Source: Chrysomallon squamiferum (lineage: Eukaryota > Animalia > Mollusca). Taken from it: a stretch of 64,000 bases of DNA. Below the pieces are notes generated by a model. The model made no database searches. It had not been told where the DNA came from and was given only the letters and a program-made list of their open reading frames with translations. The position numbers and the translations under genes are program-made. Positions 16,978-63,724 of this stretch are shown one piece after another. Position 1 is the first letter of the stretch. Each line of letters starts with the position of its first letter. The stretch spans positions 1,364,001 to 1,428,000 of the forward strand of contig CM022671.1 in NCBI GenBank assembly GCA_012295275.1, given 5' to 3'.

Positions 16978-22809
<5,832 letters not shown>

Positions 22810-23442: not shown

Positions 23443-23516
<74 letters not shown>

Positions 23517-33875: not shown

Positions 33876-33986
33876 TAAAACACACATGCTCGTAGATACA
33901 CCCACAAATAGACATACACGTTCACATATACACATGTACTTTCATTCATAATATTGATTTGATTATTTATTTATGTTGTAGATATC

Positions 33987-34847
33987 ATGCCTGATGATCG
34001 GATAACTAAGATAGTTTCTAGGACTCTGCAGGAACTGACCAAATACGCCGCAAAATTCGCTGAACTGAATTCCAATCCCAGAATGAAATTTGCCGTCATG
34101 GAAGAATGTCAGGCAGTGGCGGAGGAGCAAATTAAACTCAGCAGTGAATTTACTCAGCAGTTTGATTACCAAGCACAAAACATCAACACGGCTCTGAGGA
34201 AACAGCTACCCGCTCGGCGCCTCACTGTTTTTAAAAAAGCTCTGAAACTGCCGGCTTTCGAGCCAGCAGCGGTCACTGATGAGACAAGCAAGAAGATTTC
34301 ACTTAAAACGTACTTGAGCGGTGAAGAGCTGTTTCCAGTTCGAGTGATGGAATCGCGGGATGACGTTCACTGGGCAACCACTTTGCTGTATTCTGGGATT
34401 CTTGTGGACTCCGCCGTGTTTCTCATACATGCTGCTGGAATCTCTTTGACTACCAGCAAGAAAACGATGAGAATTACACTGAAGAAAACGGCTGATAATA
34501 TTACAGCCAAATTTGCCAAATGTAAAGCTTTCCTTGATACGTTCATAGCAAACTGGAAACAGTCTGGAGATGACTTGCGTATGAAGGGTGGAGCAGTGTT
34601 CCAGTTGATAATGGACAGCAACTCCCAAGGAATTATGGGAGATATCATTAAAGAGCTGTTGGCTGATTTGACAGGAAAGGACTGGCTCGTCACTTCCGCT
34701 CGTATTTTTGCAATGATTGTGGCGGCCATGATAACAGATGGCGCTGTCCTTGTAGCGATGATGTCGTTCGTTGTGGCTGACGCTGAGCTCTTTGCTAAGA
34801 AGATCGAGAGTGTTTATGTTTTGTGTGAAGAAACTAAACATGTTTGA
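33987..34847 (+). CDS. Uncharacterised 286-aa alpha-helical protein encoded by one coding exon, with a C-terminal hydrophobic hairpin
   Basis: An 861-nt open, non-repetitive, GC-elevated frame. A splice acceptor (ttatgttgtag) lies 5 nt before the ATG and a possible upstream donor is near 32733. No signal peptide. Hydrophobic segments at 'TTLLYSGILVDSAVFLIHAAGI' and 'ARIFAMIVAAMITDGAVLVAMMSFVVA'. Confidence 0.8.
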   Translation: MPDDRITKIVSRTLQELTKYAAKFAELNSNPRMKFAVMEECQAVAEEQIKLSSEFTQQFDYQAQNINTALRKQLPARRLTVFKKALKLPAFEPAAVTDETSKKISLKTYLSGEELFPVRVMESRDDVHWATTLLYSGILVDSAVFLIHAAGISLTTSKKTMRITLKKTADNITAKFAKCKAFLDTFIANWKQSGDDLRMKGGAVFQLIMDSNSQGIMGDIIKELLADLTGKDWLVTSARIFAMIVAAMITDGAVLVAMMSFVVADAELFAKKIESVYVLCEETKHV

Positions 34848-37063: not shown

Positions 37064-38049
37064 TCAGATTTACAGCTAACGTACAGGTTTCTGGTAAGTT
37101 GTATTTTCTTTTTTCTATTTCGACTCCAAACTCAAATACTTTTTGGTTTAAACATTTTGAATTAATGAACATCATTTTACAAGCAGTTACGTCAATAACA
37201 ATAAAGTCAGTTGGTAGAAAGGTGGAAAAAATTCCCCAAAAACCTACTTTTTATTTCAATTCAGATATCAGCTTTAATTTGACGTACACAAAATATATAT
37301 TTTTTTGTTTTTTTTGTTTTTTACTTAGGGTAGATTATGTTCAATACATTAATGGAGCGGAAGATGATCGGAATTATCCTCAATTCTTTATCTTTCTTTC
37401 TTTCCTAGACAATCTGGTTTTGACTTCCTTTTAGCAGTTTCATGATAAAATTTTCAGTCAATGTGATTTCAGTATGAACAAAGTTTTAATATGAGAATCG
37501 TATTTTCACTAACATAGACTTTTAATTCTCTCTACTTTGAAATTATATGTCATAAATGATTGTCAGTGACAATGTTTATACTTCAAACATCACTACATAC
37601 TGTGACTTTGGCACATAACTGATGGTGTATGTGAGACTGAGTGTAAAAGATCTGTTATTTACAAACGCAGTTGTCAAGGTGACCGTTTCGGAACCTGTAT
37701 AAAAGAAATAAAGGAAGTTTGCCACGGAGGCTTCTGCGGTTTGGTATGTAATTCTTATAATGCAAACAACAACAACAACAGCAGCAGCAATACAAACAAC
37801 AGAAGCAACAGCAACAGTAACAACAACAACGGTACTAATAACAATAACAACGAAATAATTAATAATAGTAACAACAAAATTAATAATTGTAATAGTAATG
37901 ATGATGACGATGTTAATAATAACAGTCATCTTCATTTGTACTCAATACATCACAGTGACAAGTTAAACAGCTATCGACAAAAGAAAACTCTGCAATGGAT
38001 ATTAACAATGGTTTTTTTTTTTTTTTTTTCAGAGTTTGTGAATTCCTGA
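36826..38049 (+). pseudogene. Decayed paralogue of the micro-exon/TSP1-like gene
   Basis: Signal exon 36826-36856 (MIGLLFILAL; its 5' flank is homologous to 16950-17030), 18-nt exon 37076-37093 (ANVQVS), 150-nt exon 37589-37738 (…DGVCETECKRSVIYKRSCQGDRFGTCIKEIKEVCHGGFC) with a lost AG acceptor and in-frame TGA at 37603, and a possible last exon 38033-38049 (EFVNS*). Confidence 0.75.
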
Positions 38050-43309: not shown

Positions 43310-45206
43310 CTAATACTTAGGTGCTTCCTCGCTCGAATCTTCTTCCTTCTTCAGTTCCTCTTCAATTTGTGTTTCTTTGCTTTCTTCTTCAGCAATTTCT
43401 TCAACTAGCTCTTTGGCTTGTTCTTCTATATCTTGTTTATTTTCTGCATCTGCTTCATTTATCTCTTCATCCATGCCCTCGGTCATTTCCTTCATACCTG
43501 CGTCAATCAAGGCATCAATAGTGTCTGCTGCTTTTATCAGAGCCTCGGCCGCCTCTGTTTGTTTCATCTGAGCCAGTACTTTACCTAACAGTCGCAAGTT
43601 GTCTGACATGTCGAGTAAGTCTTCGGGAGATGGACCACTGTCATCACTTCCATCATCCATCATCCCATTCATATCATCATCATTATCATCTTCATCATCA
43701 CTATCACCAATCATTTCTTCCAAAGAACTTAACAAAGAATTCTCATCCATAGAACCATCATCCATGTCATCACCCGACATATCTTGAAGAGAACCTAGCA
43801 AAGAATTCTCATCTACATCTTCATCATCGTCCACATCAGCGCCATCATCCAAAATTAAAGCAGCCACAAGTAATTCCTCGTCGTCTACGCTGTCATCAGA
43901 ATCATCCATGTCATCACCCATCATATCTGACAAAGAACCTAACAAAGAATTCTCATCCATAACGTCACCGTCATCCATATCGTCACCATCATCGACATCA
44001 TCACCATCATCCAGAATCAAAGCAGCTTCAAGTGTGTCCCCAAGTAATTCCTCGTCATCTCCGCCGTCATCGGAATCATTTACGTCTTCTAACAGTGTTT
44101 CCAACAGTTCTTCTACATCGTCATCATCAGCAGCAGCGTCTTCTAAATATACACAACATTACATCATTTAAATAATCAGTATAGGAATGAAGGAGAGTCA
44201 ATTAAATGTGATACAATACTAACGTCAACTGTAATCCAAGAGAGGACGGCTTATAAAAATTTTTGAATCTTATACAAATACAAGTAAATATTTCTTATTT
44301 TTAGAAAACAAGATATCAATAAATTATATATTTATTGAAGAGTTGGAATGGACCTTTTAAAAGTACCATTGGTAAGACAGGAATGCAAATATCTTCAGTT
44401 ATTCATGCACTATAAACGTGTACGTTTTTCTTCCAGTCTGAACTTTCAAAATCAGAAATATTCCCATGGGACAAGCGCTAATAACTACTACACAACTAAT
44501 GTTACGTTAAGTTTAAATCTGAAGTAATAAATATTATAAATATTTTGAGAAAAAAAGCTTTGCCTTTTAACAGTTCAACTAACAGTTTCCCTACATCGAC
44601 ATGAGGAGCAGCGTGTTCTAATTAGACACAGCAACACAGATGTAACATCATTTAAATAATCAGTATAGGAATGAAGGAAAGTGGTACGTTAGTATTATTA
44701 ATACTAACATTAAATGTAATCTAAGAGAGGACGGCTTATAAAAACATTTTCAGTAGTGTAAAGCGTACATATAAAAATAAATGTTTCTTACTATTAGAAA
44801 AGAAGATCATAAATTATATATGTACTGAGGAGTAGGAATGGATCTTTTAAAAGTACCATTGGTAAGACAGGATTGCAAATATCTTCAGTTATTCATGCAC
44901 TATAAACGTGTACGTTTTTCTTCCAGTCTGAACTTTCAAAATCAGAAATATTCCCATGGGACAAGCGTTAATAAGTTCTACACAACTAATGTTACGTTAA
45001 GTTTAAATCTGAAGTAATAAATATCATAAATATTTTGAGAAAAAAGAGCTCAGTTTTTGAAACCAGCAAGAATATGAAAGATGAAATATTTTTATACAAT
45101 TTAAGAAATAAAGAGAATTAATGGACTTACCCCCATCTTCCACCGTTATCCTGTAGGCGAAAGCTGTGGTTGCCAGGAGACACAGAAGGAAAATACAAAA
45201 TCTCAT
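43310..45206 (-). CDS. Secreted Asp/Glu-rich acidic protein, long form (copy 1, ~302 aa)
   Basis: Exon 45206-45131 (MRFCIFLLCLLATTAFAYRITVEDG, signal peptide; ATG directly after the acceptor) joins exon 44142-43310; 909 nt in frame. The non-coding first exon ends at 45880 and there is a 3'-UTR intron at 43258-42655. Confidence 0.88.
44085..45050. repeat. ~480-bp tandem duplication covering the start of the main exon and the intron of acidic copy 1
   Basis: 44150-44555 matches 44645-45045 (e.g. aaagtaccattggtaagacagg…ttcccatgggacaagcg). The duplicate includes a copy of the exon start at 44617-44564. Confidence 0.85.
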
Positions 45207-45952
45207 CTGTAAGAAAGATATAACCTTTCTGTTTACTGGCTTGTTTATTAACCTGTGAATTAATTATTTCTTAACTCATTTACTCATTTTCAGTTTGAAT
45301 TACGTTTATTTATTTGCTTGCTTCACTTACTTTATTGTTTAACTCTTATTTCTTCCGTTCCTTTGTTTTACTTATTTCATGATATCTTGTAAATTTATTT
45401 TTTGTTTATTTTTTGAAAGCAATGATTGTTTTCATGTTTATCTAATGGTACGTGTATAATAAGGTTACGGTACAGCTATCAAGAGTGTCACGTGTACTAT
45501 GACGTCACATTTCCAATGTTAAGTGGTAAAATGATGGCTTTGAAATGTTTAGTGATTACTCGTTCAAAACAATTTAAACATAAATCACTGTATGAACGTG
45601 TATATAACATTCTATTAATTAATCATTACTTACAAAATTATTTTTACAATTTCGACATTAGAGAAATACAGGACATGTCTACAAAGAACTGTTTTTAAAC
45701 TATTAACGTTTTGATCTATGAAATATTGGTACAAAACTTTTAAAAGGCGAAACGCTCCTATTATAATAATTCACGAAATATTATTGACATATTTAACTTT
45801 AAAAATTTAGTTTTCATTCGAATAAAATAAAATAATTTAACTCAGAAACATTTATGAACTGAGATAAAAATTAAATTACCTTGTTTGTTCAAGTAGGGTG
45901 CTGTATTGTTCCTGGTTCTACAGAGAATGATGTTTGATCTTAGATGTTGTCT

Positions 45953-45959
45953 TTTTATA
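45953..45959 (-). promoter_or_regulatory. TATA box of acidic gene copy 1
   Basis: TATAAAA about 75 nt upstream of the first-exon donor; the context is conserved in the other copies. Confidence 0.6.
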
Positions 45960-46240
45960 ATAACTAACATGCTAATTAGCTAACAGCTGCTTGTCGTAAT
46001 GAATTCAAACCGAATATACAATGAGAAATTTTACATATATTTTACATTGGTCAGATAATTTATGTTCAGAATACACCTTTCTGATTTTAGAATTAGATTA
46101 CAGCTTTGTAATTTTAGAATTAGATTACAACTTTGTAATTTTAGGATTAGATTACAGCTTTGTAATTTTATTATTGTTACTGCTACTTTACAATAACTGT
46201 TTAGATATGCCATTATATTATTAATATCTTGACATGTATG

Positions 46241-46284
<44 letters not shown>

Positions 46285-46775
46285 TTGTACGCATGCTTGA
46301 ATATATACTGTTTCTGCTTGTATGGTATACATACAAAAAGACATGTTTACATATTTATTGCATCAAGTGAGAGTATATATACTAACATATATCTGTCTAC
46401 TGCTGCACCACTTTTTACAGTTCCTGCGTCCCTAAGTTAACCAGTGAGAAAGTTAGTTGTTGTTATTTTAAATGACTGGTTTTGTTTCTGTTGATTTTCA
46501 GTTGTCCACTTTTAAATGAATAATAATATTACTATTATTAGTACTACTGTTTCATTAGCAAACATAAAACACAACATGAAAATACAATGGAAACACGTAT
46601 GCATGTATGCATGGACTATGAAACAAAAATATAATCTAATCCTAAAATCATAAGGATCTAATCTGACCAACATAAATTATCTGACCAATGAAAAATATAT
46701 GTAAAATTTCTCATTGTGTATTCGGTTTGAATTTATTACGACAAGCAGCTGTTAGTTAATTAGCATGTTAGTTAT

Positions 46776-46782
46776 TATAAAA
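46776..46782 (+). promoter_or_regulatory. TATA box of acidic gene copy 2
   Basis: TATAAAA in the inverted homologue of the copy 1 promoter; the first-exon donor is at 46857. Confidence 0.6.
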
Positions 46783-47019
46783 AAAGACAACATCTAAGAT
46801 AAAACATCATTCTCTGTACAACCAGGAACAATACAACACCTACTTCAACGAACAAGGTAATATAAAATTTTATTTGAGCAGATCAAATACATGTGTATGT
46901 ATATATATATATATATTATTATTATTTAATGATTCTAAAGAAAACGAAACATTTAAGAGTTAAAAATACAAAAAACAAACTAATAAATGTAAATGTTATG
47001 TTTATGTTTATATTTACAG

Positions 47020-48477
47020 ATGAAAGCTTGTATTTTCCTTCTGTGTATTTTGGCAACAACAGCTTTAGGCTACAGGGTAAAGCGGACGGTAGAGGTAATT
47101 CTGTTTATCTCACCAGTTGAATCAAAATATTTCATCCATTAATTCTGTTTATCTCACCAGTTGTATCAAAATATTTCTTCCATTAATTCTGTTCATCTCA
47201 CCAGTTGTATCAAAATATTTCTTCCATTAATTCTGTTCATCTCACCAGTTGTATCAAAATATTTCTTCCATTAATTCTGTTTATCTCACAAGTTGTATCA
47301 AAATATTTCATTCATTAATTCTGTTTATTTCACCAGTTGTATCAAAATATTTCATCCATTGGTTCTGTTTATCTCACCAGTTGTATCAAAATATTTCTTC
47401 CATTAATTCTGTTTATTTCCATAATTGTATCAAAATATTTCTTCCATTAATTCTGTTTATTTCCATAATTGTATCAAAATATTTCTTCCATTAATTCTGT
47501 TTATTTCACCAATTGTATCAAAATATTTCATCCATTGATTCTGTTTATTTCATCAGTTGTATCAAAATATTTCATCTGTCTCTTAGATTCTCTTATTTAT
47601 ATGTATCAAAATATTTCATCTGTCCTTAGATTCTCTTATTTATATGTAGAAATAGTGGTTTTTAAAAGATCCATTCATTATTATAGATAGAGAGAAACAT
47701 AGATAGATATTAGTCCGGATGTTTCCATTACAGACCTAGAAATGATATTTTTCTAAAATATCCATTCATATATGTATATAGATTCAAAAAAGATAGATTT
47801 TAGATAGATAATAGATAGATCCTATCTTTGATTAGATAAATTAGATAGATATTAAGATTTTCTTTTCTAATTGTAAGGAACATGATTTAAAATTCTTTAA
47901 CTGAAAGGTTTTATCTAAATGGTGTTACAACTAAAATGTTTTGTATATTTAGGAAAGTGGTGATGATGTTGACGGCGTAGACGACGAGGAATTACTTGTG
48001 GCTGCTTTAATTTTGGATGACGGCGATGATGTGGATGATGATGACGATGTAGATGAGGATTCTTTGGAAGAAATGATGGGTGATGATGATGATGAAGATG
48101 ATAATGATGATGATATGAATGGGATGATGGACGATGGAAGTGATGACAGTGATCCATCTCCCGAAGACTTACTCGACATGTCAGACAACTTGCGACTGTT
48201 AGGTAAAGTACTGGCTCAGATGAAACAAACAGAGGCGGCCGAGGCTCTGATAAAAGCAGCAGACACCATTGATGCCTTGATTGACGCAGGTATGAAGGAA
48301 ATGACCGAGGGCATGGACGAAGAGATAAATGAAGCAGATGCAGAAAATAAACAAGATATAGAAGAACAAGCAAAAGAGGTAGTTGAAGAAATTGCTGAAG
48401 AAGAAAGCGAAGAAACACAAATTGAAGAGGAACTGAAGAATGAAGAAGATTCGAGCGAGGAAGCACCTAAGTATTAG
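47020..48477 (+). CDS. Secreted Asp/Glu-rich acidic protein, short form (copy 2, 199 aa)
   Basis: Exon 47020-47094 (MKACIFLLCILATTALGYRVKRTVE) joins 47953-48477 across a phase-0 intron; 600 nt in frame. 3'-UTR intron 48529-48830; AATAAA at 48923. Confidence 0.9.
47095..47578 (+). repeat. 44-bp intronic minisatellite (~11 units)
   Basis: ttaattctgtttatctcaccagttgtatcaaaatatttcttcca is repeated starting at the splice donor. Confidence 0.95.
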
Positions 48478-48612
48478 AAATACAAAAAGAAACCAATAAC
48501 AACGGAAACATTCTGATTCATATTAACAGTAAGAATGACATTAACCATAAAAAAAATAATAGTAAATAAAAAAAAAAAAAAAAAAAAAATAATAATAATA
48601 ATAATAATAATA

Positions 48613-48668
<56 letters not shown>

Positions 48669-50387
48669 CAATAATAATAATAGTAAGAGGAACAAAAACG
48701 AAAAAACATTTATGATTCTGTTTTCTGTATTTTTGTTCTGTTTTTACTGCTACCATTCTTACTGTCTTACTAATTCTGTTAGTGCTGTTGCTTTGGTTGT
48801 TGTTGTTATTATTGTTATATTTTGTTTCAGATGTAGATGACGTGACCACACCGCAGTACCACACAAAGCAGAAAGAATCTTGAACATACTCGTCTAGCCC
48901 ACTCAAGTTTAATCTTATCTTGAATAAATATTATTTTAAGAAATCATAATTGGTTGTTTGTTTCTAAAATTCCTGTGTTGTGTCTCTTTCATCAAATAAA
49001 TGTAAAGAATTTATTTTTGTATAAGAAATTACCTTTCCCATGATTGCTAATGGTTGAGATTCTTCGAGAAAGAGAAAAGTAGAGAAACGAAAGAATACTT
49101 TGATGACAAACGTCTTTGTAGAATCATTCAAACGAAGATGCAAGAATAAGTACTTATTTAGCAGCACTGCTAGAAGTAGTAGTAGTAGTACTTTACTATT
49201 AAAAGTAATGGAATCAGAAGTTATATGTAATATGGTCATTATGATGAGATGATAATGATGATGTTGATATTAAGGTCATGATAACAAACAAATGTTTTAA
49301 ACGTGACTAATTTCTGCTTTGCTCTGCATTGTCCAAAAGACAGAGGTTTACACGATGACGGCTCTGAAACAGTCAGACTGAAAAGAAGCAACCCGTGTTA
49401 GGTCGATCGTGCGTTTCTTCTCTTCATATATTCGTTATTCTTGGCTGTCACTGTGGAGTCACAGTCGTAGAGGTAAAACTTGTGATACTGGGACGTTAGA
49501 TGCAAAAGAGTTAACAAAGTTAAATAAAAAATGAATCATTTATGAAAGGAAATCAAGAGATTTTATTGTATTAATCTATTTTAATTTATTTTATTTTATT
49601 TTTTTTTTTTTTTTAGTTATAAATTTAGAGTAAAAGAATTACAGAATTAGAAAAAAGAATAAAGGATGAAGATATTTCTGATGATCGCTCATTATAAAGC
49701 TGCTGATGCCTCTGAAACAGAACGTTTTGTTGTTGATGATAATAATCCTCAACTTTTGAGAATATGAGAATATTAAATTTCAGAGATATATACTACAAAG
49801 GAACATGGAAGAAAAGAAAGAAAAATTTATAATAATAATAATAATAATAATTTTTTTTTTTATTTTTTTTTTTTTGTTTTTCAATAATGAAAGAAACTGC
49901 TAAGTACCATTTTTCTGTCAAAGTGTTCATGAGTTTCCTAAATTACTTGACTCTAAACAGCTGGTAGAATAATTTATTGTAACAACAACAACAACAATAA
50001 CAAAAGCAATAATAATAATACTAATAATACTAATACTAGTAATAAAAATAATCATAATCATAATAATAATAATTATTATTATACACGACTGTTTCCACTG
50101 CTGTACATAGCATAGAAATTAACTGGCAAATATAAATATTTAAGAATAACGAAATAATAATAATAATAATACTAATAACAGTGTAAATGTGATATTACTA
50201 CAATACTATAATATTGTAATCAATTTCAGTTGTTCACGTGAATACCACATTTAGATTATTAAATGATTATTTCCTATGAAAACACTGTGATGTCTCCTAA
50301 TTGTGTGCTAAATGTGTGTGGTTGTTTTATTAATGTTTTTTCACCAACATTAATGGGTAATCCAAGAACGCTGTTAAAAGTATGTAC

Positions 50388-51553
50388 GATGTCACGTATA
50401 TTACAAAGGTCTCTGTTTAAACAGTTTGTTATGAATCATTATATTTGATGTCACGTATATTACAAAGGTCTCTGTTTAAACAGTTTGTTATGAATCATTA
50501 TATTTGATGTGATATCACGTATATTACAAAGGTCTCTGTTTAAACAGTTTGTTATGAATCATTATATTTGATGTCACGTATATTACAAAGGTCTCTGTTT
50601 AAACAGTTTGTTATGAATCATTATATTTGATGTCACGTATATTACAAAGGTCTCTGTTTAAACAGTTTGTTATGAATCATTATATTTGATGTGATATCAC
50701 GTATATTACAAAGGTCTCTGTTTAAACAGTTTGTTATGAATCATTATATTTGATGTCACGTATATTACAAAGGTCTCTGTTTAAACAGTTTGTTATGAAT
50801 CATTATATTTGATATCACGTATATTACAAAGTTCTGTTTAAACAGTTTGTTATGAATCATTATATTTAATGTGATATCACGTATATTACAAAGGTCTCTG
50901 TTTAAACAGTTTGTTAAGAATCATTATATTTAATGTGATATCACGTATATTTCAAAGGTCTCTGTTTAAACAGTTTGTTATGAATCATTATATTTGATGT
51001 GATATCACGTATATTACAAAGGTCTCTGTTTAAACAGTTTGTTATGAATCATAATATTTGATGTCACATATATTACAAAGGTCTCTGTTCAAACAGTTTG
51101 TTATGAATCATTATATTTGATGTGATATCACGTATATTACAAAGTTCTGTTTAAACAGTTTGTTATGAATCATTATATTTAATGTGATATCACGTATATT
51201 ACAAAGGTCTCTGTTTAAACAGTTTGTTATGAATCATTATATTTGATGTCACATATATTACAAAGGTCTCTGTTTAAACAGTTTGTTATGAATCATTATA
51301 TTTAATGTGATATCACGTATATTACATAGGTCTCTGTTTAAACAGTTTGTTATGAATCATTATATTTGATGTCACGTATATTACAAAGGTCTCTGTTTAA
51401 ACAGTTTGTTATGAATCATTATATTTAATGTGATATCACGTATATTACAAAGGTCTCTGTTTAAACAGTTTGTTATGAATCATTATATTTGATGTGATAT
51501 CACGTATATTACAAAGGTCTCTGTTTAAACAGTTTGTTATGAATCATTATATT
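50388..51553. repeat. 59/64-bp tandem array (~19 units)
   Basis: Unit gatgtcacgtatattacaaaggtctctgtttaaacagtttgttatgaatcattatattt; some units carry a 5-bp insertion. Confidence 0.97.
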
Positions 51554-52658
51554 TTCCGGATTTATTTATTTTAATCTTTTGACGAAAAAAACGGAATGAG
51601 CCAACACGAGAGAGAGAGATGGGCAAAAAGAAGAAGAAAAAGAGAGAGAGACCGAGAGTGAATGAAGACGGGAGAAAGGGAGAAAGAAACGAAAGGAGAG
51701 AATGAAACAGAATGAGATAGAAAGAACAACAAAAAAAGAAGCGAAGAAATAGGAAAAGGAGAGAAATCGGGAAAGAGAAAACGAGAAAGAGAAAAACGAG
51801 AATGTGAGAGGAATTTATGTTTTAACACTAAATGTTTTACTCAACTTGTTTTCATTCAGAAACTTTACAAAAAAGACTTTTATTAACTATAATTTGAAAA
51901 TTATGTGTATGAATGAAACAGAAATATGAATGTTGGGCTAATTTTGATACATCTCAACAAACGGACCTATTATCTGATCAATATGATTCTAATGTATTAT
52001 ATGTCTTTCTAAGTCAGTTAATAAAATATGTTAAAATTATACTTTCACTATTGTAAACTGCCGAATCTAACAGCGGAAAAACTCGAAAATACATGATTTT
52101 TATTAGTATCTGAATTCTTTTTCATCAAAGTATTCTTTCGTTTCTCTACTTTTCTATTTCTCGAAGAATTTGAGTCATTAGCAAAAATAAATTCTTTTGC
52201 GTCATTTGATGAAAGAGACACGAAACTGGAATTTTAGAAACAAACAACCAACTATGATTTCTTAAAATAATTTTTATTCAAGATAAGATTAAACTTGAGT
52301 GGTCTAGACGAGTATGTTCAAGATTCTTTCTGCTTTGTGTGGTACTGCGGTGTGGTCACGTCATCTACATCTGAAACAAAATATAACAATAATAACAACA
52401 ACAACCAAAGCAACAGCACTAACACAATTAGTAAGACAGTAAAAATGGTAGCAGTAAAAACAGAACAAAAATACAGAAAACAGAATCACAAATGTTTTTT
52501 CGTTTTTGTTCCTATTATTATTATTATTATTATCATTATTATTATTTATTTATTTATTTTTATTTTTATTTACTGTTATTTTTTGTTATGGTTAATGTCA
52601 TTCTTACTGTTAATATGAATCAGAATGTTTCCGTTGTTATTGGTTTCTTTTTGTATTT

Positions 52659-54258
52659 CTAATACTTAGGTGCTTCCTCGCTCGAATCTTCTTCATTCTT
52701 CAGTTCCTCTTCAATTTGTGTTTCTTCGCTTTCTTCTTCGGCAATTTCTTCAACTAGCTCTTTCGCTTGTTCTTCTATATCTTGTTTATTTTCTGCATCT
52801 GCTTCATTTATCTCTTCGTCCATGCCCTCGGTCATTTCCTTCATACCTGCGTCAATGAAGGCATCAATAGTGTCTGCTGCTTTTATCAGAGCCTCGGCCG
52901 CCTCTGTTTGTTTCATCTGAGCCAGTACTTTACCTAACAGTCGCAAGTTGTCTGACATGTCGAGTAAGTCTTCGGGAGATGGACCACTGTCATCACTTCC
53001 ATCGTCCATCATCCCATTCATATCATCATCATTATCATCTTCATCATCATCATCACCCATCATTTCTTCCAAAGAATCCTCATCTACATCGTCATCATCA
53101 TCCACATCATCGCCGTCATCCAAAATTAAAGCAGCCACAAGTAATTCCTCGTCGTCTACGCCGTCAACATCATCACCACTTTCCTAAATATACAAAACAT
53201 TTTAGTTGTAACACCATTTAAAAAATCAGTTCAAGAATAAATGAGCGAATGTGACAATACTCTTAATAACATGTAATTTGTTATAATCAAAGATAGGACC
53301 TCTTATTAAAAACATTTGAATTATGCGCATACATATTCCTTATTATTAGAAAAGAAAATCTATCTATCTATCTATCTGTCTATCTATATACATATATGAA
53401 TGGATCTTTTAAAAGCACCATTTCTGGGTCAGTAAGAGACAGATGAAATATTTTGATACAATTGGTGAAAAAAACAAAATCAATGGATGAAATATTTTGA
53501 TACAACTGGTGAGATAAACAGAATTAATGGAAGAATATTTTGATACAATTGGTGAAATAAACAGAATTAATGGATGAATATTTTGATACAACTGGTGAGA
53601 TGAACAGAATTAATGGAAGAAATATTTTGATACAATTGGTGAAATGAACAGAATTAATTGATGAAATATTTTGATACAACTGGTGAGATAAACAGAATTA
53701 ATGGATGAAATATTTTGATACAACTGGTGAGATAAACAGAATTAATGGAAGAAATATTTTGATACAACTGGTGAGATAAACAGAATTAATGGAAGAAATA
53801 TTTTGATACAATTGGTGAAATGAACAGAATTAATGGAAGAATATTTTGATACAATTGGTGAAATAAACAGAATTAATGGATGAATATTTTGATACAACTG
53901 GTGAGATGAACAGAATTAATGGAAGAAATATTTTGATACAATTGGTGAAATGAACAGAATTAATTGATGAAATATTTTGATACAACTGGTGAGATAAACA
54001 GAATTAATGGATGAAATATTTTGATACAACTGGTGAGATAAACAGAATTAATGGAAGAAATATTTTGATACAACTGGTGAGATAAACAGAATTAATGGAA
54101 GAAATATTTTGATACAATTGGTGAAATGAACAGAATTAATGGAAGAAATATTTTGATACAACTGGTGAGATAAACAGAATTACCTCTATCGTCCGCTTTA
54201 CCCTGTAGCCTAAAGCTGTTGTTGCCAAAATACACAGAAGGAAAATACAAGTTTTCAT
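52659..54258 (-). CDS. Secreted Asp/Glu-rich acidic protein, short form (copy 3, 199 aa)
   Basis: Exons 54258-54184 (MKTCIFLLCILATTALGYRVKRTIE) and 53183-52659, in frame. Confidence 0.9.
53441..54183 (-). repeat. 44-bp intronic minisatellite (~17 units)
   Basis: Reverse complement of the 47.1-kb unit. Confidence 0.95.
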
Positions 54259-54752
54259 CTGAAAATATAAACATAAACATAACATTTACATTTATTACTT
54301 TGTTTTTTGGTATTTTTAACTCTTAAATGTTTCGTTTTCTTAAATGGTTATATATATATATATATCTGATCTGCTAAAATAAAATTTTATATTACCTTTT
54401 TCGTTCAAGTAGGTGCTGTGTTGTTCCTGGTTGTACAGAGAATATCGTTTTATCTTAGTTGTAGTCTTTATATAATAACTAACATGCTAATTAACTAACA
54501 GCTGCTTGTCGTAATGAATTCAAACCGAATATACAATGAGAAATTTTACATATATTTTACATTGGTCAGATAATTTATGTTCAGAATACACCTTTCTGAT
54601 TTTATGATTAGATTACAGCTTTGTTTCATAGTCCATGCATACATCAGCAATAGAGAAAGGTGTGGTGCCAACAAAAATAATTCTTCGCCAACCAAAACAC
54701 ATTTCTGACTCTATGAAGCACTAAATGATGGTTGGACTAACTATAACATTTC

Positions 54753-56553
54753 TATAATACATTAGAATCATACTGATCAGATAATAGTTCGGTTTCTTAG
54801 AGATGTATCAAAATTAGCCTAACTAGAACATATTTCTGTTTCATTCATACACATAATTTTCAAATTATGGTTAATAAAAAGTCTGTTTTGTAAAGACTCT
54901 CACATACTCGTTTTTTCTCTTTCTCGTTTTCTCTTTCCCAATTTCTCTCCTTTTTCTATTTCTTCGATTCTTTTTTGTTGTTCTTTCTATCTCATTCTGT
55001 TTCATTGTCTGCTTTTGTTTCTTTCTCCCGTCTTCATTCACTCTCTCTCTCTTCTTATTTTTACCCTCTTACTCTCTCGTGTTGGCTAATTCTGTATTTT
55101 TCATCAAAAGATTGAAATAAATAAATTACAAAAATATATTTGCCAGTTTATTTCTATGCTATGTACATCGATGAAAACAGTCGTGTATAATTATTATGAT
55201 TATTATTTTTATTAGTAATATTAGTATTATTAGTAATATTAGTATTATTAGTATTAGTATTATTGCTTTTGTTATTGTTGTTGTTGTTGTTACAATAGAT
55301 TATTCTACCTTGCTTTCATTATCAACATCACCAATGAATTGTTACCTGGGAAAACACTGTCATGTCTCCCATTTCGGTACCAAATGTGTGTTTGTTTTTG
55401 TTTTTTGTTTTTACCAACATTAACGGGTACTCCAAGAACGCTGTTAAAAGTATGTACGATGTCACGTATATTACACAGGTCTCTGTTTAAACAGTTTGTT
55501 ATGAATCATTATATTTAATGTCACGTATATTACACAGGTCTCTGTTTAAACAGTTTGTTATGAATCATTATATTTAATGTCACGTATATTACACAGGTCT
55601 CTGTTTAAACAGTTTGTTATGAATCATTATATTTGATGTCACGTATATTACACAGGTCTCTGTTTAAACAGTTTGTTATGAATCATTATATTTGATGTCA
55701 CGTATATTACGCAGGTCTCTGTTTAAACAGTTTGTTATGAATCATTATATTTGATGTCACGTACATTACACAGGTCTCTGTTTAAACAGTTTATTATGAA
55801 TCATTATATTTGATGTCAAGTATATTACACAGGTCTCTGTTTAAACAGTTTATTATGAATCATTATATTTAATGTCACGTATATTACACAGGTCTCTGTT
55901 TAAACAGTTTGTTATGAATCATTATATTTAATGTCACGTATATTACGCAGGTCTCTGTTTAAACAGTTTGTTATGAATCATTATATTTGATGTCACGTAT
56001 ATTACACAGGTCTCTGTTTAAACAGTTTGTTATGAATCATTATATTTGATGTCACGTATATTACGCAGGTCTCTGTTTAAACAGTTTGTTATGAATCATT
56101 ATATTTGATGTCACGTACATTACACAGGTCTCTGTTTAAACAGTTTATTATGAATCATTATATTTGATGTCAAGTATATTACACAGGTCTCTGTTTAAAC
56201 AGTTTATTATGAATCATTATATTTGATGTCACGTACATTACACAGGTCTCTGTTTAAACAGTTTGTTATGAATCATTATATTTGATGTCACGTGTATTAC
56301 AGAGGCTCCGTTTAAACAGTTTATTATGAATCATTATATTTGATGTCACGTACATTACACAGGTCTCTGTTTAAACAGTTTATTATGAATCATTATATTT
56401 GATGTCAAGTATATTACACAGGTCTCTGTTTAAACAGTTTATTATGAATCATTATATTTGATGTCACGTGTATTACAAAGGTCTCTGTTGAAACAGTTTA
56501 TTATGAATCATTATTTATTTTAATCTTTTGACGAGAAAAACGGAATGAGCCAA

Positions 56554-56636
<83 letters not shown>

Positions 56637-57012
56637 AAAAGAAGAAGAAGAAGAGAGAGAGAGAGACGGAGAGTGAATGAAGATGGGAGAAAGGGAGAAA
56701 GAAACAAAAGGAGATAATGAAAGAATGAGGTAGAAAGAACAACAAAAAATGAAGCGAAGAAATAGGAAAAAAGAGAAATCGGGAAAGAGAAAACGAGAAA
56801 GAGAAAAACGAGAATGTGAGAGGAATTTAAGTTTCTACACTAAATGTTTTACTCAACTTGTTTTCATTCAGAAACTTTACAAAACAAACTTTTATTAACT
56901 ATAATTTGCAAATTATGTGTATGAATGAAACAGAAATATGCATGTTAGGCTAATTTTGATACATCTCAACAAACGGAACTATTATCTGATCAATATGATT
57001 CTAATGTATTAT
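54753..57012. repeat. Long inverted-repeat arms (~54753-55125 and ~56512-57012) enclosing a 59-bp tandem array
   Basis: The left arm tataatacattagaatcatactgatcagataatagttc…gttggctaattctg…aaaagattgaaataaataaa is the reverse complement of tttattttaatcttttgacg…gccaacacgaga…gaactattatctgatcaatatgattctaatgtattata. Confidence 0.85.
55458..56513. repeat. 59-bp tandem array (~18 units)
   Basis: Same unit as the 50.4-kb array, acacagg variant. Confidence 0.97.
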
Positions 57013-57660
57013 ATGTCTTTCTAAGTCAGTTAATAAAATATGTTAAAATTATACTTTCACTATTGTAAACTGCCGAATCTAACAGCGGAAAAACTCGAAA
57101 ATACATGATTTTCATTAATATCTGAATTCTTTTTCATCAAAGTATTCTTTCGTTTCTCTACTTTTCTATTTCTCGAAGAATTTGAGTCATTAGCAAAAAT
57201 AAATTCTTTTGCGTCATTTGATGAAAGAGACACGAAACTGGAATTTTAGAAACAAACAACCAACTATGATTTCTTAAAATAATATTTATTCAAGATAAGA
57301 TTAAACTTGAGTGGGCTAGACGAGTATGTTCAAGATTCTTTCTGCTTTGTGTGGTACTGCGGTGTGGTCACGTCATCTACATCTGAAACAAAATATAACA
57401 ATAATAACAACAACAACCAAAGCAACAGCACTAACAGAATTAGTAAGACAGTAAAAATGGTAGCAGTAAAAACAGAACAAAAATACAGAAAAAAGAATCA
57501 TAAATGTTTTTTCGTTTTTGTTCATCTTATTATTATTATTATTATTATTATTATTTTACAAGTTTTTATTTACTATTATTTTTTTTGTTATGGTTAATGT
57601 CATTCTTACTATGAATATGAATCAGAATGTTTCCGTTGTTATTGGTTTCTTTTTGTATTT

Positions 57661-59000
57661 CTAATACTTAGGTGCTTCCTCGCTCGAATCTTCTTCATTC
57701 TTCAGTTCCTCTTCAATTTGTGTTTCTTCGCTTTCTTCTTCAGCAATTTCTTCAACTACCTCTTTCGATTCTTCTTCTATGTCTTGTTTATTTTCTGCAT
57801 CTGCTTCATTTATCTCTTCCTCCATGCCCTCGGTCATTTCCTTCATACCTGCGTCAATCAAGGCATCAATAGTGTCTGCTTGCTTTTATCAGAGCCTCGG
57901 CCGCCTCTGTTTTGTTTCATCTGAGCCAGTACTTTACCTAACAGTCGCAAGTTGTCTGACATGTCGAGTAAGTCTTCGGGAGATTGACCACTCTCATCAC
58001 TTCCATCGTCCATCATCCCATTCATATCATCATCATTATCATCTTCATCATCATCATCACCCATCATTTCTTCCAAAGAATCCTCATCTACATCGTCATC
58101 ATCATCCACATCATCGCCGTCATCCAAAATTAAAGCAGCCACAAGTAATTCCTCGTCGTCTACGCCGTCAACATCATCACCACTTTCCTAAATATACAAA
58201 ACATTTTAGTTGTAACACCATTTAAAAAATCAGTTCAAGAATAAATGAGCGAATGTGACAATACTCTTAATAACATGTAATTTATTATAATCTAATATAG
58301 GACCTCTTATTAAAAACATTTGAATTATGCACATACATATTCCTTATTATTAGAAAAGAAAATCTATCTATCTATCTATCTGTCTATCTATATACATATA
58401 TGAATGGATCTTTTAAAAGCACCATTTCTGGGTCAGTAAGAGACAGATGAAATATTTTGATACAATTGGTGAAATAAACAGAATTAATGGATGAAATATT
58501 TTGATACAATTGGTGAAAAAAACAAAATCAATGGATGAAATATTTTGATACAACTGGTGAGATAAACAGAATTAATGGAAGAATATTTTGATACAATTGG
58601 TGAAATAAACAGAATTAATGGATGAATATTTTGATACAACTGGTGAGATGAACAAAATTAATGGAAGAAATATTTTGATACAATTGGTGAAATGAACAGA
58701 ATTAATTGATGAAATATTTTGATACAACTGGTGAGATAAACAGAATTAATGGATGAAATATTTTGATACAACTGGTGAGATAAACAGAATTAATGGAAGA
58801 AATATTTTGATACAACTGGTGAGATAAACAGAATTAATGGAAGAAATATTTTGATACAATTGGTGAAATGAACAGAATTAATGGAAGAAATATTTTGATA
58901 CAACTGGTGAGATAAACAGAATTACCTCTATCGTCCGCTTTACCCTGTAGCCTAAAGCTGTTGTTGCCAAAATACACAGAAGGAAAATACAAGTTTTCAT
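57661..59000 (-). pseudogene. Acidic protein copy 4, frameshifted (pseudogene or assembly error)
   Basis: Exons 59000-58926 and 58187-57661. The latter is 527 nt against 525 in the intact copies, with single extra T bases (plus strand) near 57910 and 57880. Confidence 0.8.
58444..58925 (-). repeat. 44-bp intronic minisatellite (~11 units)
   Basis: Same unit as in copies 2 and 3. Confidence 0.95.
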
Positions 59001-59494
59001 CTGAAAATATAAACATAAACATAACATTTACATTTATTACTTTGTTTTTTGGTATTTTTAACTCTTAAATGTTTCGTTTTCTTAAATGGTTATATATATA
59101 TATATATCTGATCTGCTAAAATAAAATTTTATATTACCTTTTTCGTTCAAGTAGGTGCTGTGTTGTTCCTGGTTGTACAGAGAATATCGTTTTATCTTAG
59201 TTGTAGTCTTTATATAATAACTAACATGCTAATTAACTAACAGCTGCTTGTCGTAATGAATTCAAACCGAATATACAATGAGAAATTTTACATATATTTT
59301 ACATTGGTCAGATAATTTATGTTCAGAATACACCTTTCTGATTTTATGATTAGATTACAGCTTTGTTTCATAGTCCATGCATACATCAGCAATAGAGAAA
59401 GGTGTGGTGCCAACAAAAATAATTCTTCGCCAACCAAAACACATTTCTGACTCTATGAAGCACTAAATGATGGTTGGACTAACTATAACATTTC

Positions 59495-61303
59495 TATAAT
59501 ACATTAGAATCATACTGATCAGATAATAGTTCGGTTTCTTAGAGATGTATCAAAATTAGCCTAACTAGAACATATTTCTGTTTCATTCATACACATAATT
59601 TTCAAATTATGGTTAATAAAAGTCTGTTTTGTAAAGACTCTCACATACTCGTTTTTCTCTTTCTCGTTTTCTCTTTCCCAATTTCTCTCCTTTTTCTATT
59701 TCTTCGATTCTTTTTTGTTGTTCTTTCTATCTCATTCTGTTTCATTGTCTGCTTTTGTTTCTTTCTCCCGTCTTCATTCACTCTCTCTCTCTTCTTATTT
59801 TTACCCCTCTTACTCTCTCGTGTTGGCTAATTCTGTATTTTTCATCAAAAGATTGAAATAAATAAATTACAAAAATATATTTGCCAGTTTATTTCTATGC
59901 TATGTACATCGATGAAAACAGTCGTGTATAATTATTATGATTATTATTTTTATTAGTAATATTAGTATTATTAGTAATATTAGTATTATTAGTATTAGTA
60001 TTATTGCTTTTGTTATTGTTGTTGTTGTTGTTACAATAGATTATTCTACCTTGCTTTCATTATCAACATCACCAATGAATTGTTACCTGGGAAAACACTG
60101 TCATGTCTCCCATTTCGGTACCAAATGTGTGTTTGTTTTTTGTTTTTTTGTTTTTTACCAACATTAACGGGTACTCCAAGAACGCTGTTAAAAGTATGTA
60201 CGATGTCACGTATATTACACAGGTCTCTGTTTAAACAGTTTGTTATGAATCATTATATTTAATGTCACGTATATTACACAGGTCTCTGTTTAAACAGTTT
60301 GTTATGAATCATTATATTTAATGTCACGTATATTACACAGGTCTCTGTTTAAACAGTTTGTTATGAATCATTATATTTGATGTCACGTATATTACACAGG
60401 TCTCTGTTTAAACAGTTTGTTATGAATCATTATATTTGATGTCACGTATATTACGCAGGTCTCTGTTTAAACAGTTTGTTATGAATCATTATATTTGATG
60501 TCACGTACATTACACAGGTCTCTGTTTAAACAGTTTATTATGAATCATTATATTTGATGTCAAGTATATTACACAGGTCTCTGTTTAAACAGTTTATTAT
60601 GAATCATTATATTTAATGTCACGTATATTACACAGGTCTCTGTTTAAAACAGTTTGTTATGAATCATTATATTTAATGTCACGTATATTACGCAGGTCTC
60701 TGTTTAAACAGTTTGTTATGAATCATTATATTTGATGTCACGTATATTACACAGGTCTCTGTTTAAACAGTTTGTTATGAATCATTATATTTGATGTCAC
60801 GTATATTACGCAGGTCTCTGTTTAAACAGTTTGTTATGAATCATTATATTTGATGTCACGTACATTACACAGGTCTCTGTTTAAACAGTTTATTATGAAT
60901 CATTATATTTGATGTCAAGTATATTACACAGGTCTCTGTTTAAACAGTTTATTATGAATCATTATATTTGATGTCACGTACATTACACAGGTCTCTGTTT
61001 AAACAGTTTGTTATGAATCATTATATTTGATGTCACGTGTATTACAGAGGCTCCGTTTAAACAGTTTATTATGAATCATTATATTTGATGTCACGTACAT
61101 TACACAGGTCTCTGTTTAAACAGTTTATTATGAATCATTATATTTGATGTCAAGTATATTACACAGGTCTCTGTTTAAACAGTTTATTATGAATCATTAT
61201 ATTTGATGTCACGTGTATTACAAAGGTCTCTGTTGAAACAGTTTATTATGAATCATTATTTATTTTAATCTTTTGACGAGAGAAAAACGGAATGAGCCAA
61301 CAC

Positions 61304-61360
<57 letters not shown>

Positions 61361-61740
61361 GAGAGAGAGAGAGAAAGGGGAAAAGAAGAAGAAGAAGGAG
61401 AGAATGAAAGAATGAAGATGGGAGAAAGGGAAAAGAAACAAAAGGAGAAATGAAAGAATGAAGAAAGAACAAAAAAAAATGAAGGAAGAAATAGGAAAAA
61501 GAGAAATCGGGAAAGAGAAAACGAGAAAGAGAAAAACGAGAATGTGAGAGGAATTTAAGTTTTACACTAAATGTTTTACTCAACTTGTTTTCATTCAGAA
61601 ACTTTACAAAACAAACTTTTATTAACTATAATTTGCAAATTATGTGTATGAATGAAACAGAAATATGCATGTTAGGCTAATTTTGATACATCTCAACAAA
61701 CGGAACTATTATCTGATCAATATGATTCTAATGTATTATA
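59495..61740. repeat. Second copy of the inverted-arm / 59-bp array module (array 60202-61259)
   Basis: Near-identical to 54753-57012 at an offset of ~4.74 kb. Confidence 0.88.
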
Positions 61741-62386
61741 TGTCTTTCTAAGTCAGTTAATAAAATATGTTAAAATTATACTTTCACTATTGTAAACTGC
61801 CGAATCTAACAGCGGAAAAACTCGAAAATACATGATTTTCATTAATATCTGAATTCTTTTTCATCAAAGTATTCTTTCGTTTCTCTACTTTTCTATTTCT
61901 CGAAGAATTTGAGTCATTAGCAAAAATAAATTCTTTTGCGTCATTTGATGAAAGAGACACGAAACTGGAATTTTAGAAACAAACAACCAACTATGATTTC
62001 TTAAAATAATATTTATTCAAGATAAGATTAAACTTGAGTGGGCTAGACGAGTATGTTCAAGATTCTTTCTGCTTTGTGTGGTACTGCGGTGTGGTCACGT
62101 CATCTACATCTGAAACAAAATATAACAATAATAACAACAACAACCAAAGCAACAGCACTAACAGAATTAGTAAGACAGTAAAAATGGTAGCAGTAAAAAC
62201 AGAACAAAAATACAGAAAAAAGAATCATAAATGTTTTTTCGTTTTTGTTCATCTTATTATTATTATTATTATTATTATTATTTTACAAGTTTTTATTTAC
62301 TATTATTTTTTTGTTATGGTTAATGTCATTCTTACTATGAATATGAATCAGAATGTTTCCGTTGTTATTGGTTTCTTTTTGTATTT

Positions 62387-63724
62387 CTAATACTTAGGTG
62401 CTTCCTCGCTCGAATCTTCTTCATTCTTCAGTTCCTCTTCAATTTGTGTTTCTTCGCTTTCTTCTTCAGCAATTTCTTCAACTACCTCTTTCGATTCTTC
62501 TTCTATGTCTTGTTTATTTTCTGCATCTGCTTCATTTATCTCTTCCTCCATGCCCTCGGTCATTTCCTTCATACCTGCGTCAATCAAGGCATCAATAGTG
62601 TCTGCTGCTTTTATCAGAGCCTCGGCCGCCTCTGTTTGTTTCATCTGAGCCAGTACTTTACCTAACAGTCGCAAGTTGTCTGACATGTCGAGTAAGTCTT
62701 CGGGAGATTGACCACTCTCATCACTTCCATCGTCCATCATCCCATTCATATCATCATCATTATCATCTTCATCATCATCATCACCCATCATTTCTTCCAA
62801 AGAATCCTCATCTACATCGTCATCATCATCCACATCATCGCCGTCATCCAAAATTAAAGCAGCCACAAGTAATTCCTCGTCGTCTACGCCGTCAACATCA
62901 TCACCACTTTCCTAAATATACAAAACATTTTAGTTGTAACACCATTTAAAAAATCAGTTCAAGAATAAATGAGCGAATGTGACAATACTCTTAATAACAT
63001 GTAATTTATTATAATCTAATATAGGACCTCTTATTAAAAACATTTGAATTATGCACATACATATTCCTTATTATTAGAAAAGAAAATCTATCTATCTATC
63101 TATCTGTCTATCTATATACATATATGAATGGATCTTTTAAAAGCACCATTTCTGGGTCAGTAAGAGACAGATGAAATATTTTGATACAATTGGTGAAATA
63201 AACAGAATTAATGGATGAAATATTTTGATACAATTGGTGAAAAAAACAAAATCAATGGATGAAATATTTTGATACAACTGGTGAGATAAACAGAATTAAT
63301 GGAAGAATATTTTGATACAATTGGTGAAATAAACAGAATTAATGGATGAATATTTTGATACAACTGGTGAGATGAACAAAATTAATGGAAGAAATATTTT
63401 GATACAATTGGTGAAATAAACAGAATTAATTGATGAAATATTTTGATACAACTGGTGAGATGAACAGAATTAATGGAAGAAATATTTTGATACAACTGGT
63501 GAGATAAACAGAATTAATGGATGAAATATTTTGATACAACTGGTGAGATAAACAGAATCAATGGAAGAAATATTTTGATACAACTGGTGAGATAAACAGA
63601 ATTAATGGAAGAAATATTTTGATACAACTGGTGAAATAAACAGAATTACCTCTATCGTCCGCTTTACCCTGTAGCCTAAAGCTGTTGTTGCCAAAATACA
63701 CAGAAGGAAAATATAAGCTTTCAT
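62387..63724 (-). CDS. Secreted Asp/Glu-rich acidic protein, short form (copy 5, 199 aa)
   Basis: Exons 63724-63650 (MKAYIFLLCILATTALGYRVKRTIE) and 62911-62387, in frame. Confidence 0.9.
63169..63649 (-). repeat. 44-bp intronic minisatellite (~11 units)
   Basis: Same unit as in the other short copies. Confidence 0.95.

What the first reader, a model, noticed from the sequence alone, without database searches (positions are those of the whole stretch)
43310..63724. Five-copy array of secreted, extremely acidic Asp/Glu/Met-rich proteins
Seen: each copy has a signal peptide, a poly-Asp low-complexity region, a conserved amphipathic helical core (PEDLLDMSDNLRLLGKVLAQMKQTEAAEALIKAADTIDALIDAGMKEM) and a Glu-rich tail ending APKY, with no Cys in the mature chain. 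Orientation is -,+,-,-,-, and the last three form ~4.7-5.0 kb tandem units that may continue past the window. Known: secreted Asp-rich proteins (aspein, Asprich, coral CARPs) bind Ca2+ and control CaCO3 mineralisation. Inference: a dosage-amplified, lineage-specific biomineralisation or metal-binding protein family. I do not recognise the helical core as a named domain.
Basis: partly seen in the sequence, partly recalled or inferred. Interest (0 to 1): 0.7.

Follow-up and report, generated by a model that had tools for sequence, protein, structure and literature searches.

The report
Amplified acidic secreted vent-snail protein family
A snail, likely of the hydrothermal-vent family that includes the scaly-foot snail, carries four to five close copies of an undescribed gene for a very acidic protein predicted to be secreted, with a relative found only in another vent snail; it likely binds calcium during shell building, a known kind of job, but nothing yet ties it to the shell.

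Summary
The array is real. It holds five three-exon genes (-,+,-,-,-) for 199-302 aa proteins with a predicted signal peptide, an Asp-rich disordered arm, a predicted helical hairpin running into a long helix, and a Glu-rich tail. D+E is about 40%, pI 3.3-3.5, and the mature chains have no Cys.

Copy 1 is an older type.

One credible homologue was found: a 143-aa Gigantopelta aegis protein (three RefSeq accessions, 37% identity in the core, 17 of 24 N-terminal residues identical). The neighbouring MOV-10 gene also hits G. aegis, so the host is likely a peltospirid vent snail, probably Chrysomallon (inferred). No Pfam, PDB or Atlas family fits the core. Between the two snails the hairpin is conserved while the acidic arm varies about sixfold in length.

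Best reading (0.5): a lineage-restricted acidic shell-matrix-type protein, analogous to Lottia CCD1 but not shown homologous. Expression, Ca binding and shell localisation are all untested. Interest is moderate.

The parts
43310..44142 (-). Copy 1 exon 3: 180-aa Asp-rich arm with internal repeats, helical core, Glu-rich tail, stop. Protein 302 aa; ancestral type.
45131..45206 (-). Copy 1 exon 2: ATG, predicted signal peptide and the YRITVED motif shared with G. aegis; phase-1 intron follows
   Evidence: 17 of 24 residues identical to P0002
45880..46109 (-). Copy 1 conserved upstream block (about 146 nt), TATA-like box and presumed non-coding exon 1
   Evidence: (143 of 146 nt identical to copy 3); not confirmed by RNA
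46623..46856 (+). Copy 2 upstream block, TATA-like box and presumed exon 1; divergent (head-to-head) from copy 1
47020..47094 (+). Copy 2 exon 2: predicted signal peptide followed by R-V-K-R (furin-type site, predicted); phase-0 intron with 44-bp minisatellite follows
47953..48477 (+). Copy 2 exon 3: acidic arm, helical core (about 48157-48306), tail, stop. Protein 199 aa.
52659..53183 (-). Copy 3 exon 3 (protein 199 aa, intact)
54184..54258 (-). Copy 3 exon 2 (presumed exon 1 ends at 54396, TATA-like box near 54475)
57661..58187 (-). Copy 4 exon 3: two 1-nt insertions in the core (near 57909 and 57879), frameshifted; otherwise identical to copy 5
58926..59000 (-). Copy 4 exon 2, identical to copy 3 (presumed exon 1 ends at 59138)
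62387..62911 (-). Copy 5 exon 3 (protein 199 aa, intact)
63650..63724 (-). Copy 5 exon 2 (presumed exon 1 ends at 63847, TATA-like box near 63927)
53704..63170 (.). Near-perfect tandem duplication of about 4.7 kb with breakpoints in intron 2, creating hybrid copy 4. 0 substitutions in 2,560 non-repeat columns; 6 short indels, 5 of them 1 nt.
50388..51554 (.). 59-64 bp minisatellite of the spacer, repeated at 55458-56514 and 60202-61259

Best explanation
These genes encode a family of very acidic proteins, found here only in what is likely a peltospirid vent snail and in Gigantopelta aegis, that are predicted to be secreted and likely act as shell-matrix-type Ca2+/calcium-carbonate regulators supplied in bulk. 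Shown: gene structure, composition, copy history and homology to G. aegis. Predicted: signal peptide, disordered Asp-rich arm, helical hairpin plus long helix, and furin-type and Fam20C-type (S-x-E) sites. Inferred mechanism: the mantle secretes the protein; the polyanionic arm and tail (net charge about -60 to -100) gather Ca2+ and stabilise or steer amorphous CaCO3; the conserved amphipathic hairpin would hold chains together or dock them on the organic framework. Tandem duplication with homogenisation of the core would raise the dose, and changes in arm length would tune the charge.
For: Composition: D+E about 40%, pI 3.3-3.5. This is the range of Lottia CCD1 (31% D, pI 3.55, coil, extracellular, 3.49% of the shell proteome, its major phosphoprotein; PMC4094399 passages). 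Host: five MOV-10 exons are 54-77% identical to G. aegis MOV-10, the only hit among 297 candidates. Homologue P0002 keeps the signal peptide, N-terminal motif and core; 0 of 5,000 shuffles reach the score for the core or for the N-terminus. If the host is Chrysomallon, that is conservation over about 116 Myr (PMC7895826 section 7). Four of five ORFs are intact, with splice sites, TATA-like box, an AATAAA or ATTAAA signal at +88 to +91 and a conserved 146-nt upstream block, which argues for live genes. Independently expanded, lineage-specific, secreted low-complexity families are typical of mantle secretomes (PMC4897951 passages). In peltospirids, 19 of 49 uncharacterised shell/sclerite proteins are family-specific (PMC11871041 section 8). 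Five to seven S-x-E sites per intact copy; 16 of 46 Lottia shell phosphosites fit this or related motifs.
Against: No expression or proteomic datum is tied to these genes. The parts of the published shell-proteome tables that I read give ids without sequences, and motif searches found nothing. The G. aegis homologue has only a short acidic arm (about 30 aa), D+E 33%, K+R 12% and pI 3.98, so extreme acidity is not the conserved trait. No homology to aspein, Asprich or CCD1 was shown. Acidic secreted proteins also occur in mucus, blood and glands (general knowledge). The species is inferred, not shown.
Confidence: 0.5

Rival explanations
1. A polyanionic metal or ion buffer secreted outside the shell (mucus, haemolymph or storage granules) that binds Fe, Zn, Cu or Ca in vent fluid; high dose is selected for detoxification.
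For: The only homologue is in a vent-endemic snail (family ecology from PMC7895826 passages). It is amplified in both lineages and has a high carboxylate density.
Against: No Cys, His or Trp in the window's mature chains, so no soft-metal ligands; carboxylates favour Ca/Mg or Fe(III) (general chemistry). The restriction to vent snails may reflect sampling, since few Neomphalida are sequenced.
Confidence: 0.2
2. A gland or reproductive secretion (egg coat, albumen or seminal fluid, or a granin-like packaging protein of secretory granules), processed at the furin-type site.
For: Acidic, Cys-free, helical and secreted, which is granin-like (recalled). R-V-K-R follows the signal peptide in copies 2-5. 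Young, homogenised tandem arrays are common among reproductive proteins (recalled).
Against: The furin-type site is absent from copy 1 and G. aegis and depends on which of two possible donors is used (sequence). No internal dibasic sites release peptides. The core is nearly invariant between copies, not diversifying.
Confidence: 0.17
3. A sclerite- or iron-sulfide-related protein: copies 2-5 were recruited in the scaly-foot lineage to bind Fe and template or limit mineral in scales or the outer shell layer.
For: Compared with G. aegis the acidic arm is 2-6 times longer, and copies 2-5 have a derived N-terminus. The host is probably Chrysomallon (inferred).
Against: The family is shared with the scale-less G. 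aegis. Only 7 of 178 sclerite proteins were uncharacterised and 29 of 178 had signal peptides; novel proteins are concentrated in the shell (PMC11871041).
Confidence: 0.07
4. The multiplicity is largely an assembly artefact or neutral copy-number noise around one or two genes.
For: Copy 4 is an exact copy 3/copy 5 mosaic with only homopolymer-type indels outside repeats, as an assembler loop with long-read errors would give. Copies 2, 3 and 5 differ at only 8-11 of 600 coding nt, close to the 1.38% heterozygosity reported for C. squamiferum (PMC7142155 passage).
Against: Copy 1 differs strongly from the rest (59-60 of 75 nt in exon 2) and copy 2 is inverted with its own upstream sequence (exon 1 73 of 83 nt against copies 3 and 5). 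Independent DNA run X1 holds several sequence variants, including the exact 3' end of copy 2 and two further 3' ends. G. aegis has the gene at two or more loci. Unequal crossing-over between copies 5 and 3 would give the same mosaic.
Confidence: 0.06

Closest known systems
Gigantopelta aegis uncharacterized proteins LOC121381992 / LOC121381193 (XP_041366316.1, XP_041367339.1, XP_041367381.1; P0002)
   Same: True homologue: signal peptide plus YRITVED motif (17 of 24 identical to copy 1), acidic arm, helical hairpin and long helix (27 of 73 identical, E 1e-13 pairwise), charged tail; multi-locus.
   Different: 143 aa; arm about 30 aa against about 70-180; pI 3.98; Lys-richer tail; one Cys; no furin-type site. 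No function; 0 papers in the searched library name these ids.
Lottia gigantea CCD1 (B3A0Q3, Lotgi1|233420)
   Same: Gastropod, extracellular, very acidic (31% D, 10% E, pI 3.55-3.6), with a predicted coil; abundant shell phosphoprotein (PMC3374290 and PMC4094399 passages). Best functional analogue.
   Different: About 394 aa or more and more Asp-rich. No sequence homology shown: it did not appear, but it lies outside the length range and I had no CCD1 sequence for a direct test.
Aspein (Pinctada) and Asprich (Atrina)
   Same: Secreted Asp-rich disordered arm of the type shown for aspein to bind Ca2+ and stabilise amorphous CaCO3 (bioRxiv 10.64898/2026.06.03.729799, abstract and Introduction).
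   Different: Aspein is 60.4% Asp, 1.5% Glu, pI about 1.45, predicted fully disordered, from the bivalve calcitic prismatic layer. This family is 20-25% Asp plus 15-20% Glu and has an ordered conserved hairpin.
Accripin11 (Pinna nobilis)
   Same: Small clade-specific shell protein combining short helices with an acidic disordered end (PMC9808598 abstract).
   Different: Defined by a cysteine pattern, pI 6.74, pteriomorph bivalves; this family has no Cys pattern.

Membership tests
Peltospirid family of G. aegis LOC121381992 | Non-low-complexity homology in N-terminal motif and helical core | tested here: met
   E 1.2e-06 in 1.84 billion proteins; 0 of 5,000 shuffles reach either score; still E 1e-12 to 4e-10 with low-complexity masking
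Aspein/Asprich | Asp dominates the chain (aspein 60.4% Asp, 1.5% Glu) | tested here: not met
   Asp 20-25%, Glu 15-20%; the arm alone is 33-39% Asp
Aspein/Asprich | Chain essentially fully disordered | tested here: not met
   AlphaFold2 helices H70-89 and H93-167, pLDDT 86-94 in the core; same layout at lower confidence for P0002. Prediction only.
Aspein/Asprich | Sequence homology outside low-complexity tracts | tested here: inconclusive
   No such hit; their presence in those libraries was not checked
Lottia CCD1/CCD2 | Secreted, pI about 3.5, acidic tracts plus helical/coil region | tested here: met
   (signal peptide judged by hydropathy only)
Lottia CCD1/CCD2 | Sequence homology to B3A0Q3 or B3A0Q7 | tested here: inconclusive
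   No hit with the core; CCD1 is outside the length limits; no direct pairwise test
Acidic shell matrix proteins (functional class) | Mantle expression and peptides occluded in shell | not testable with these tools
   No genome or RNA holder available; the supplement parts read lack sequences
Acidic shell matrix proteins (functional class) | Ca2+ binding or effect on CaCO3 crystallisation | not testable with these tools
   Needs a bench assay
TPR proteins | Tandem 34-aa helical hairpins matching a TPR profile | tested here: not met
   One hairpin only; no TPR family in Pfam at E up to 1
Antimicrobial-peptide precursors with an acidic propiece | Cationic amphipathic peptide released at a flanking dibasic site | tested here: not met
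   Core net charge -6; no R-x-K/R-R site next to it; the matching G. aegis helix is not cationic
Ferritin-like or ESCRT-III/PspA helical folds | Significant structural match over a domain | tested here: inconclusive
   Foldseek best E 0.88; VIA best Z 8.3, rmsd 1.9, 62 residues aligned, with many unrelated hairpins tied

The most novel reading that the evidence does not exclude
The host is the scaly-foot snail, and it has taken an ancestral vent-snail secreted hairpin protein, lengthened its acidic arm up to sixfold, given it a new furin site through a frameshift compensated across an intron, and amplified it into a high-dose Fe/Ca-binding scaffold used in its iron-mineralised armour. That would be a host-encoded, testable handle on iron-sulfide biomineralisation.
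Probability: 0.07. Interest if true: 0.8.

Novelty: new member of a known kind. Interest (0 to 1): 0.4.

Why it matters
Very acidic matrix proteins are thought to control CaCO3 deposition, but low complexity usually makes their homology untraceable. This family has an alignable, conserved helical core, so its acidic arm can be followed between two vent-snail genera, and 'arm length tunes mineral control, hairpin assembles' becomes directly testable. It also gives a concrete, short, Cys-free candidate among the unannotated family-specific proteins of peltospirid shells, checkable at once against public RNA-seq and MS data. If it is only one more mantle low-complexity protein, it is a modest addition to a well-known pattern.

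Tried and rejected
Whole genome: none held, so no genome-wide copy count.

Homology: exon 3 alone gave 0 of 1,056 candidates at E up to 0.01 (lengths 95-305 only). P0003 (E 5e-05, 533 aa, about six 90-aa repeats, no signal peptide or acidic arm) was dropped as a likely chance helical match. Pfam hits were all below their cut-offs. PDB sequence search: best E 0.12. Atlas: best feature score 0.81, which is chance level, and structure TM 0.38 or less. Fold searches found generic hairpins only.

Homodimer prediction of the core: no verdict (score 0.12 against a mark of 0.32; alignment not used), which is no evidence either way.

RNA: no RNA holder was listed. The three added RNA runs matched only 34-35 nt low-complexity pieces. 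Neither is evidence on expression. No single-copy depth baseline was obtained, so X1 depths (contigs from about 43 to 315) were not converted to copy number.

A cluster of 12 mantle-enriched genes in the published scaly-foot table (CsqKR_Scaf135_4.x) looked like a candidate array. It was rejected because the two repeat units shown (of 19 rows) are Gly/Met/Leu-rich or Gly/Arg/Trp-rich. MOV-10 is not named in the supplements searched, so no gene id could be tied to the window.

His-rich and Ser-rich ORFs on the opposite strand are antisense shadows of the GAT/GAA codons. TPR and antimicrobial-precursor readings were rejected (see membership test). dN/dS was uninformative, with 0-1 changes in the core. 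Earlier scan findings: none.
Full report
1. OBSERVATION. The window is AT-rich animal DNA (GC 31.0%) full of microsatellites. Five related genes lie at 43310-63724 on strands -,+,-,-,-. Each has a conserved upstream block and TATA-like box, a presumed non-coding exon 1, a 75-76 nt exon 2 that begins with the ATG directly after the acceptor AG, and a long exon 3. An AATAAA or ATTAAA signal lies 88-91 nt after the stop in 5 of 5 copies. The gene models are from sequence signals only; no RNA confirms them. The products are 302 aa (copy 1) and 199 aa (copies 2, 3, 5). Copy 4 has two 1-nt insertions in the core and ends at 134 aa. Mature chains have D+E 39.6-40.7%, Met 5.5-6%, and no Cys, His or Trp; net charge is -101 (copy 1) and about -62 (copies 2, 3), pI 3.27-3.52. 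The N-terminus looks like a signal peptide and no transmembrane segment follows.

2. ANATOMY. AlphaFold2 on exon 3 of copy 2 (single sequence) gives a low-confidence coil for residues 1-69, a helix at 70-89, a tight turn and a long helix at 93-167, with pLDDT 86-94 over residues 71-120. Both core helices are amphipathic. No Pfam family passes its cut-off. PDB sequence, Foldseek, VIA and Atlas searches give only generic hairpins, which shows neither novelty nor kinship of the fold.

3. RELATIVES AND HOST. phmmer with the 83-aa core against 1.84 billion representatives gave 2 hits at E up to 0.001. One, P0003, was dropped as a likely chance match. The other, P0002, is a Gigantopelta aegis uncharacterised protein under three RefSeq accessions and at least two LOC ids. 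It shares the N-terminus of copy 1 (17 of 24 identical) and the core (27 of 73), and 0 of 5,000 shuffles reach either score. A profile search returned only P0002 among 1,186 candidates of 59-251 aa; longer relatives were covered only. Five MOV-10 exons at window 98-4036 are 54-77% identical to G. aegis MOV-10, the only hit of 297 candidates. The host is therefore likely a neomphalid, probably peltospirid, snail other than G. aegis (G. aegis averages 37.22% GC). Chrysomallon squamiferum is the likeliest species (my estimate about 80%). That its genome is near 30% GC is recalled; it was not found. The two genera split about 116 Ma (95% interval 71-184).

4. HISTORY OF THE ARRAY. Copy 1 keeps the ancestral N-terminal motif. 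Copies 2-5 have exon 2 one base shorter, read R-V-K-R after the signal peptide, and have intron phase 0 instead of 1, so the frame is kept across the intron. This rests on the donor homologous to copy 1's; a second possible donor 18 nt upstream would remove most of the motif (sequence). Copy 1 and copy 5 are 150 of 150 nt identical in the core, but 59 of 75 in exon 2, 83 of 100 at the intron end and 123 of 146 in the arm. Zero changes at 33 synonymous sites has probability 0.0004-0.002 at the flanking divergence, which points to gene conversion of the core (inferred). Copy 4 is copy 3 in its 5' half (366 of 366) and copy 5 in its 3' half (0 substitutions in 1,097 non-repeat columns). The duplicated segment has 0 substitutions in 2,560 non-repeat columns and 6 short indels. 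It is either a very recent unequal crossover or an assembly loop, at about even odds, and its frameshifts look like homopolymer errors. Run X1 behaves as genomic DNA (26 of 30 bins covered, introns included; 91 records laid). It holds the exact 3' end of copy 2, a variant copy-1-type exon 2, and two 3' ends that leave the window's sequence just before the stop codon, so further paralogues or alleles exist. Its depths are not a copy count.

5. MECHANISM. Best reading (0.5): a mantle-secreted, shell-matrix-type polyanion. Shown: intact, conserved, amplified genes and extreme acidity. Predicted: secretion, disorder plus hairpin, and 5-7 S-x-E sites. Inferred: Ca2+ capture and control of amorphous CaCO3 by arm and tail, as described for aspein; assembly or docking through the hairpin; dosage as the reason for amplification. 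Against it: nothing ties the genes to mantle or shell, and the G. aegis protein is less acidic (pI 3.98, arm about 30 aa), so the hairpin is the conserved element. Rivals: metal buffer in mucus or blood (0.2), gland or reproductive secretion (0.17), sclerite or iron role (0.07), mostly artefact (0.06).

6. COMPARISON. It likely works like Lottia CCD1 and, more loosely, aspein, Asprich and accripin11, but it is not filed in any of them: it fails aspein's composition and disorder criteria, and homology to CCD1 is not shown. It is a member of the unnamed G. aegis LOC121381992 family. Searches for the G. aegis ids and two motifs found 0 papers in a library limited to Creative Commons PMC papers and bioRxiv.

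7. WHAT WAS READ. PMC11871041: abstract, Results part 1 of 3, section 8, passages, and supplement file 3 parts 1, 13, 70 and 71 of 400 plus term searches (the file is cut; one PDF has no text and one is too large). PMC7142155: passages, supplement file 4 part 1 of 235, and term searches (one file too large). PMC7895826: passages and section 7. PMC3374290, PMC4094399 and PMC4897951: passages. bioRxiv 10.64898/2026.06.03.729799: abstract and Introduction. PMC9808598: abstract. Others: search listings only. Unseen supplements and the deposited gene sets could already show these genes as mantle or shell proteins.

8. VERDICT. A real, apparently undescribed, vent-snail-restricted family; four secure copies and one doubtful. 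It is a new member of a known kind (lineage-specific acidic secreted low-complexity proteins), with function inferred only. Interest 0.4; up to 0.8 if it proves to serve the scaly-foot snail's iron armour (probability about 0.07).

Noticed in passing
window 98-4036 (-): First five coding exons of a MOV-10 helicase gene, 54-77% identical to G. aegis; used to place the host.
   Followed up: partly
window 98-4036 against 43310-63724: MOV-10 and the array are about 39 kb apart here, but G. aegis MOV-10 (P0001) and P0002 lie on contigs of different length (96.8 and 84.9 Mb), although rearrangements between the two genera are reported as intra-chromosomal only. The array may have moved, or P0001 or P0002 may be a paralogue.
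   Followed up: no
window 33963-34847 (+): Intronless 294-aa open frame with hydrophobic C-terminal stretches and no Pfam hit at E 0.01; unexplained.
   Followed up: no
window 19619-23536 and 37600-37750: Repeated Cys/Trp exon resembling a thrombospondin type-1 repeat (judged by eye; no Pfam hit for the two frames scanned), with an inverted duplication 19619-20163 / 20524-21068 at 95.8%.
   Followed up: no
window 12415-13878 (+): LDL-receptor class A exon (Pfam E 2.9e-08) and a six-Cys exon that looks ShKT-like by eye (no Pfam hit).
   Followed up: no
window 31095-31322 (+): Universal stress protein exon (Pfam E 1.3e-11).
   Followed up: partly
window 24070-24797 (-): FLYWCH (E 3.7e-09) and weak MULE transposase remnants of a Mutator-like element.
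   Followed up: no
window 47096-47573, 53445-54182, 58446-58924, 63170-63648: The 44-bp minisatellite of intron 2 starts at the splice donor in copies 2-5 and appears as a single related unit in copy 1; the tandem-duplication breakpoints fall in or beside it.
   Followed up: partly
window 44161-45050: 490-bp tandem duplication (88% matches) inside intron 2 of copy 1.
   Followed up: no
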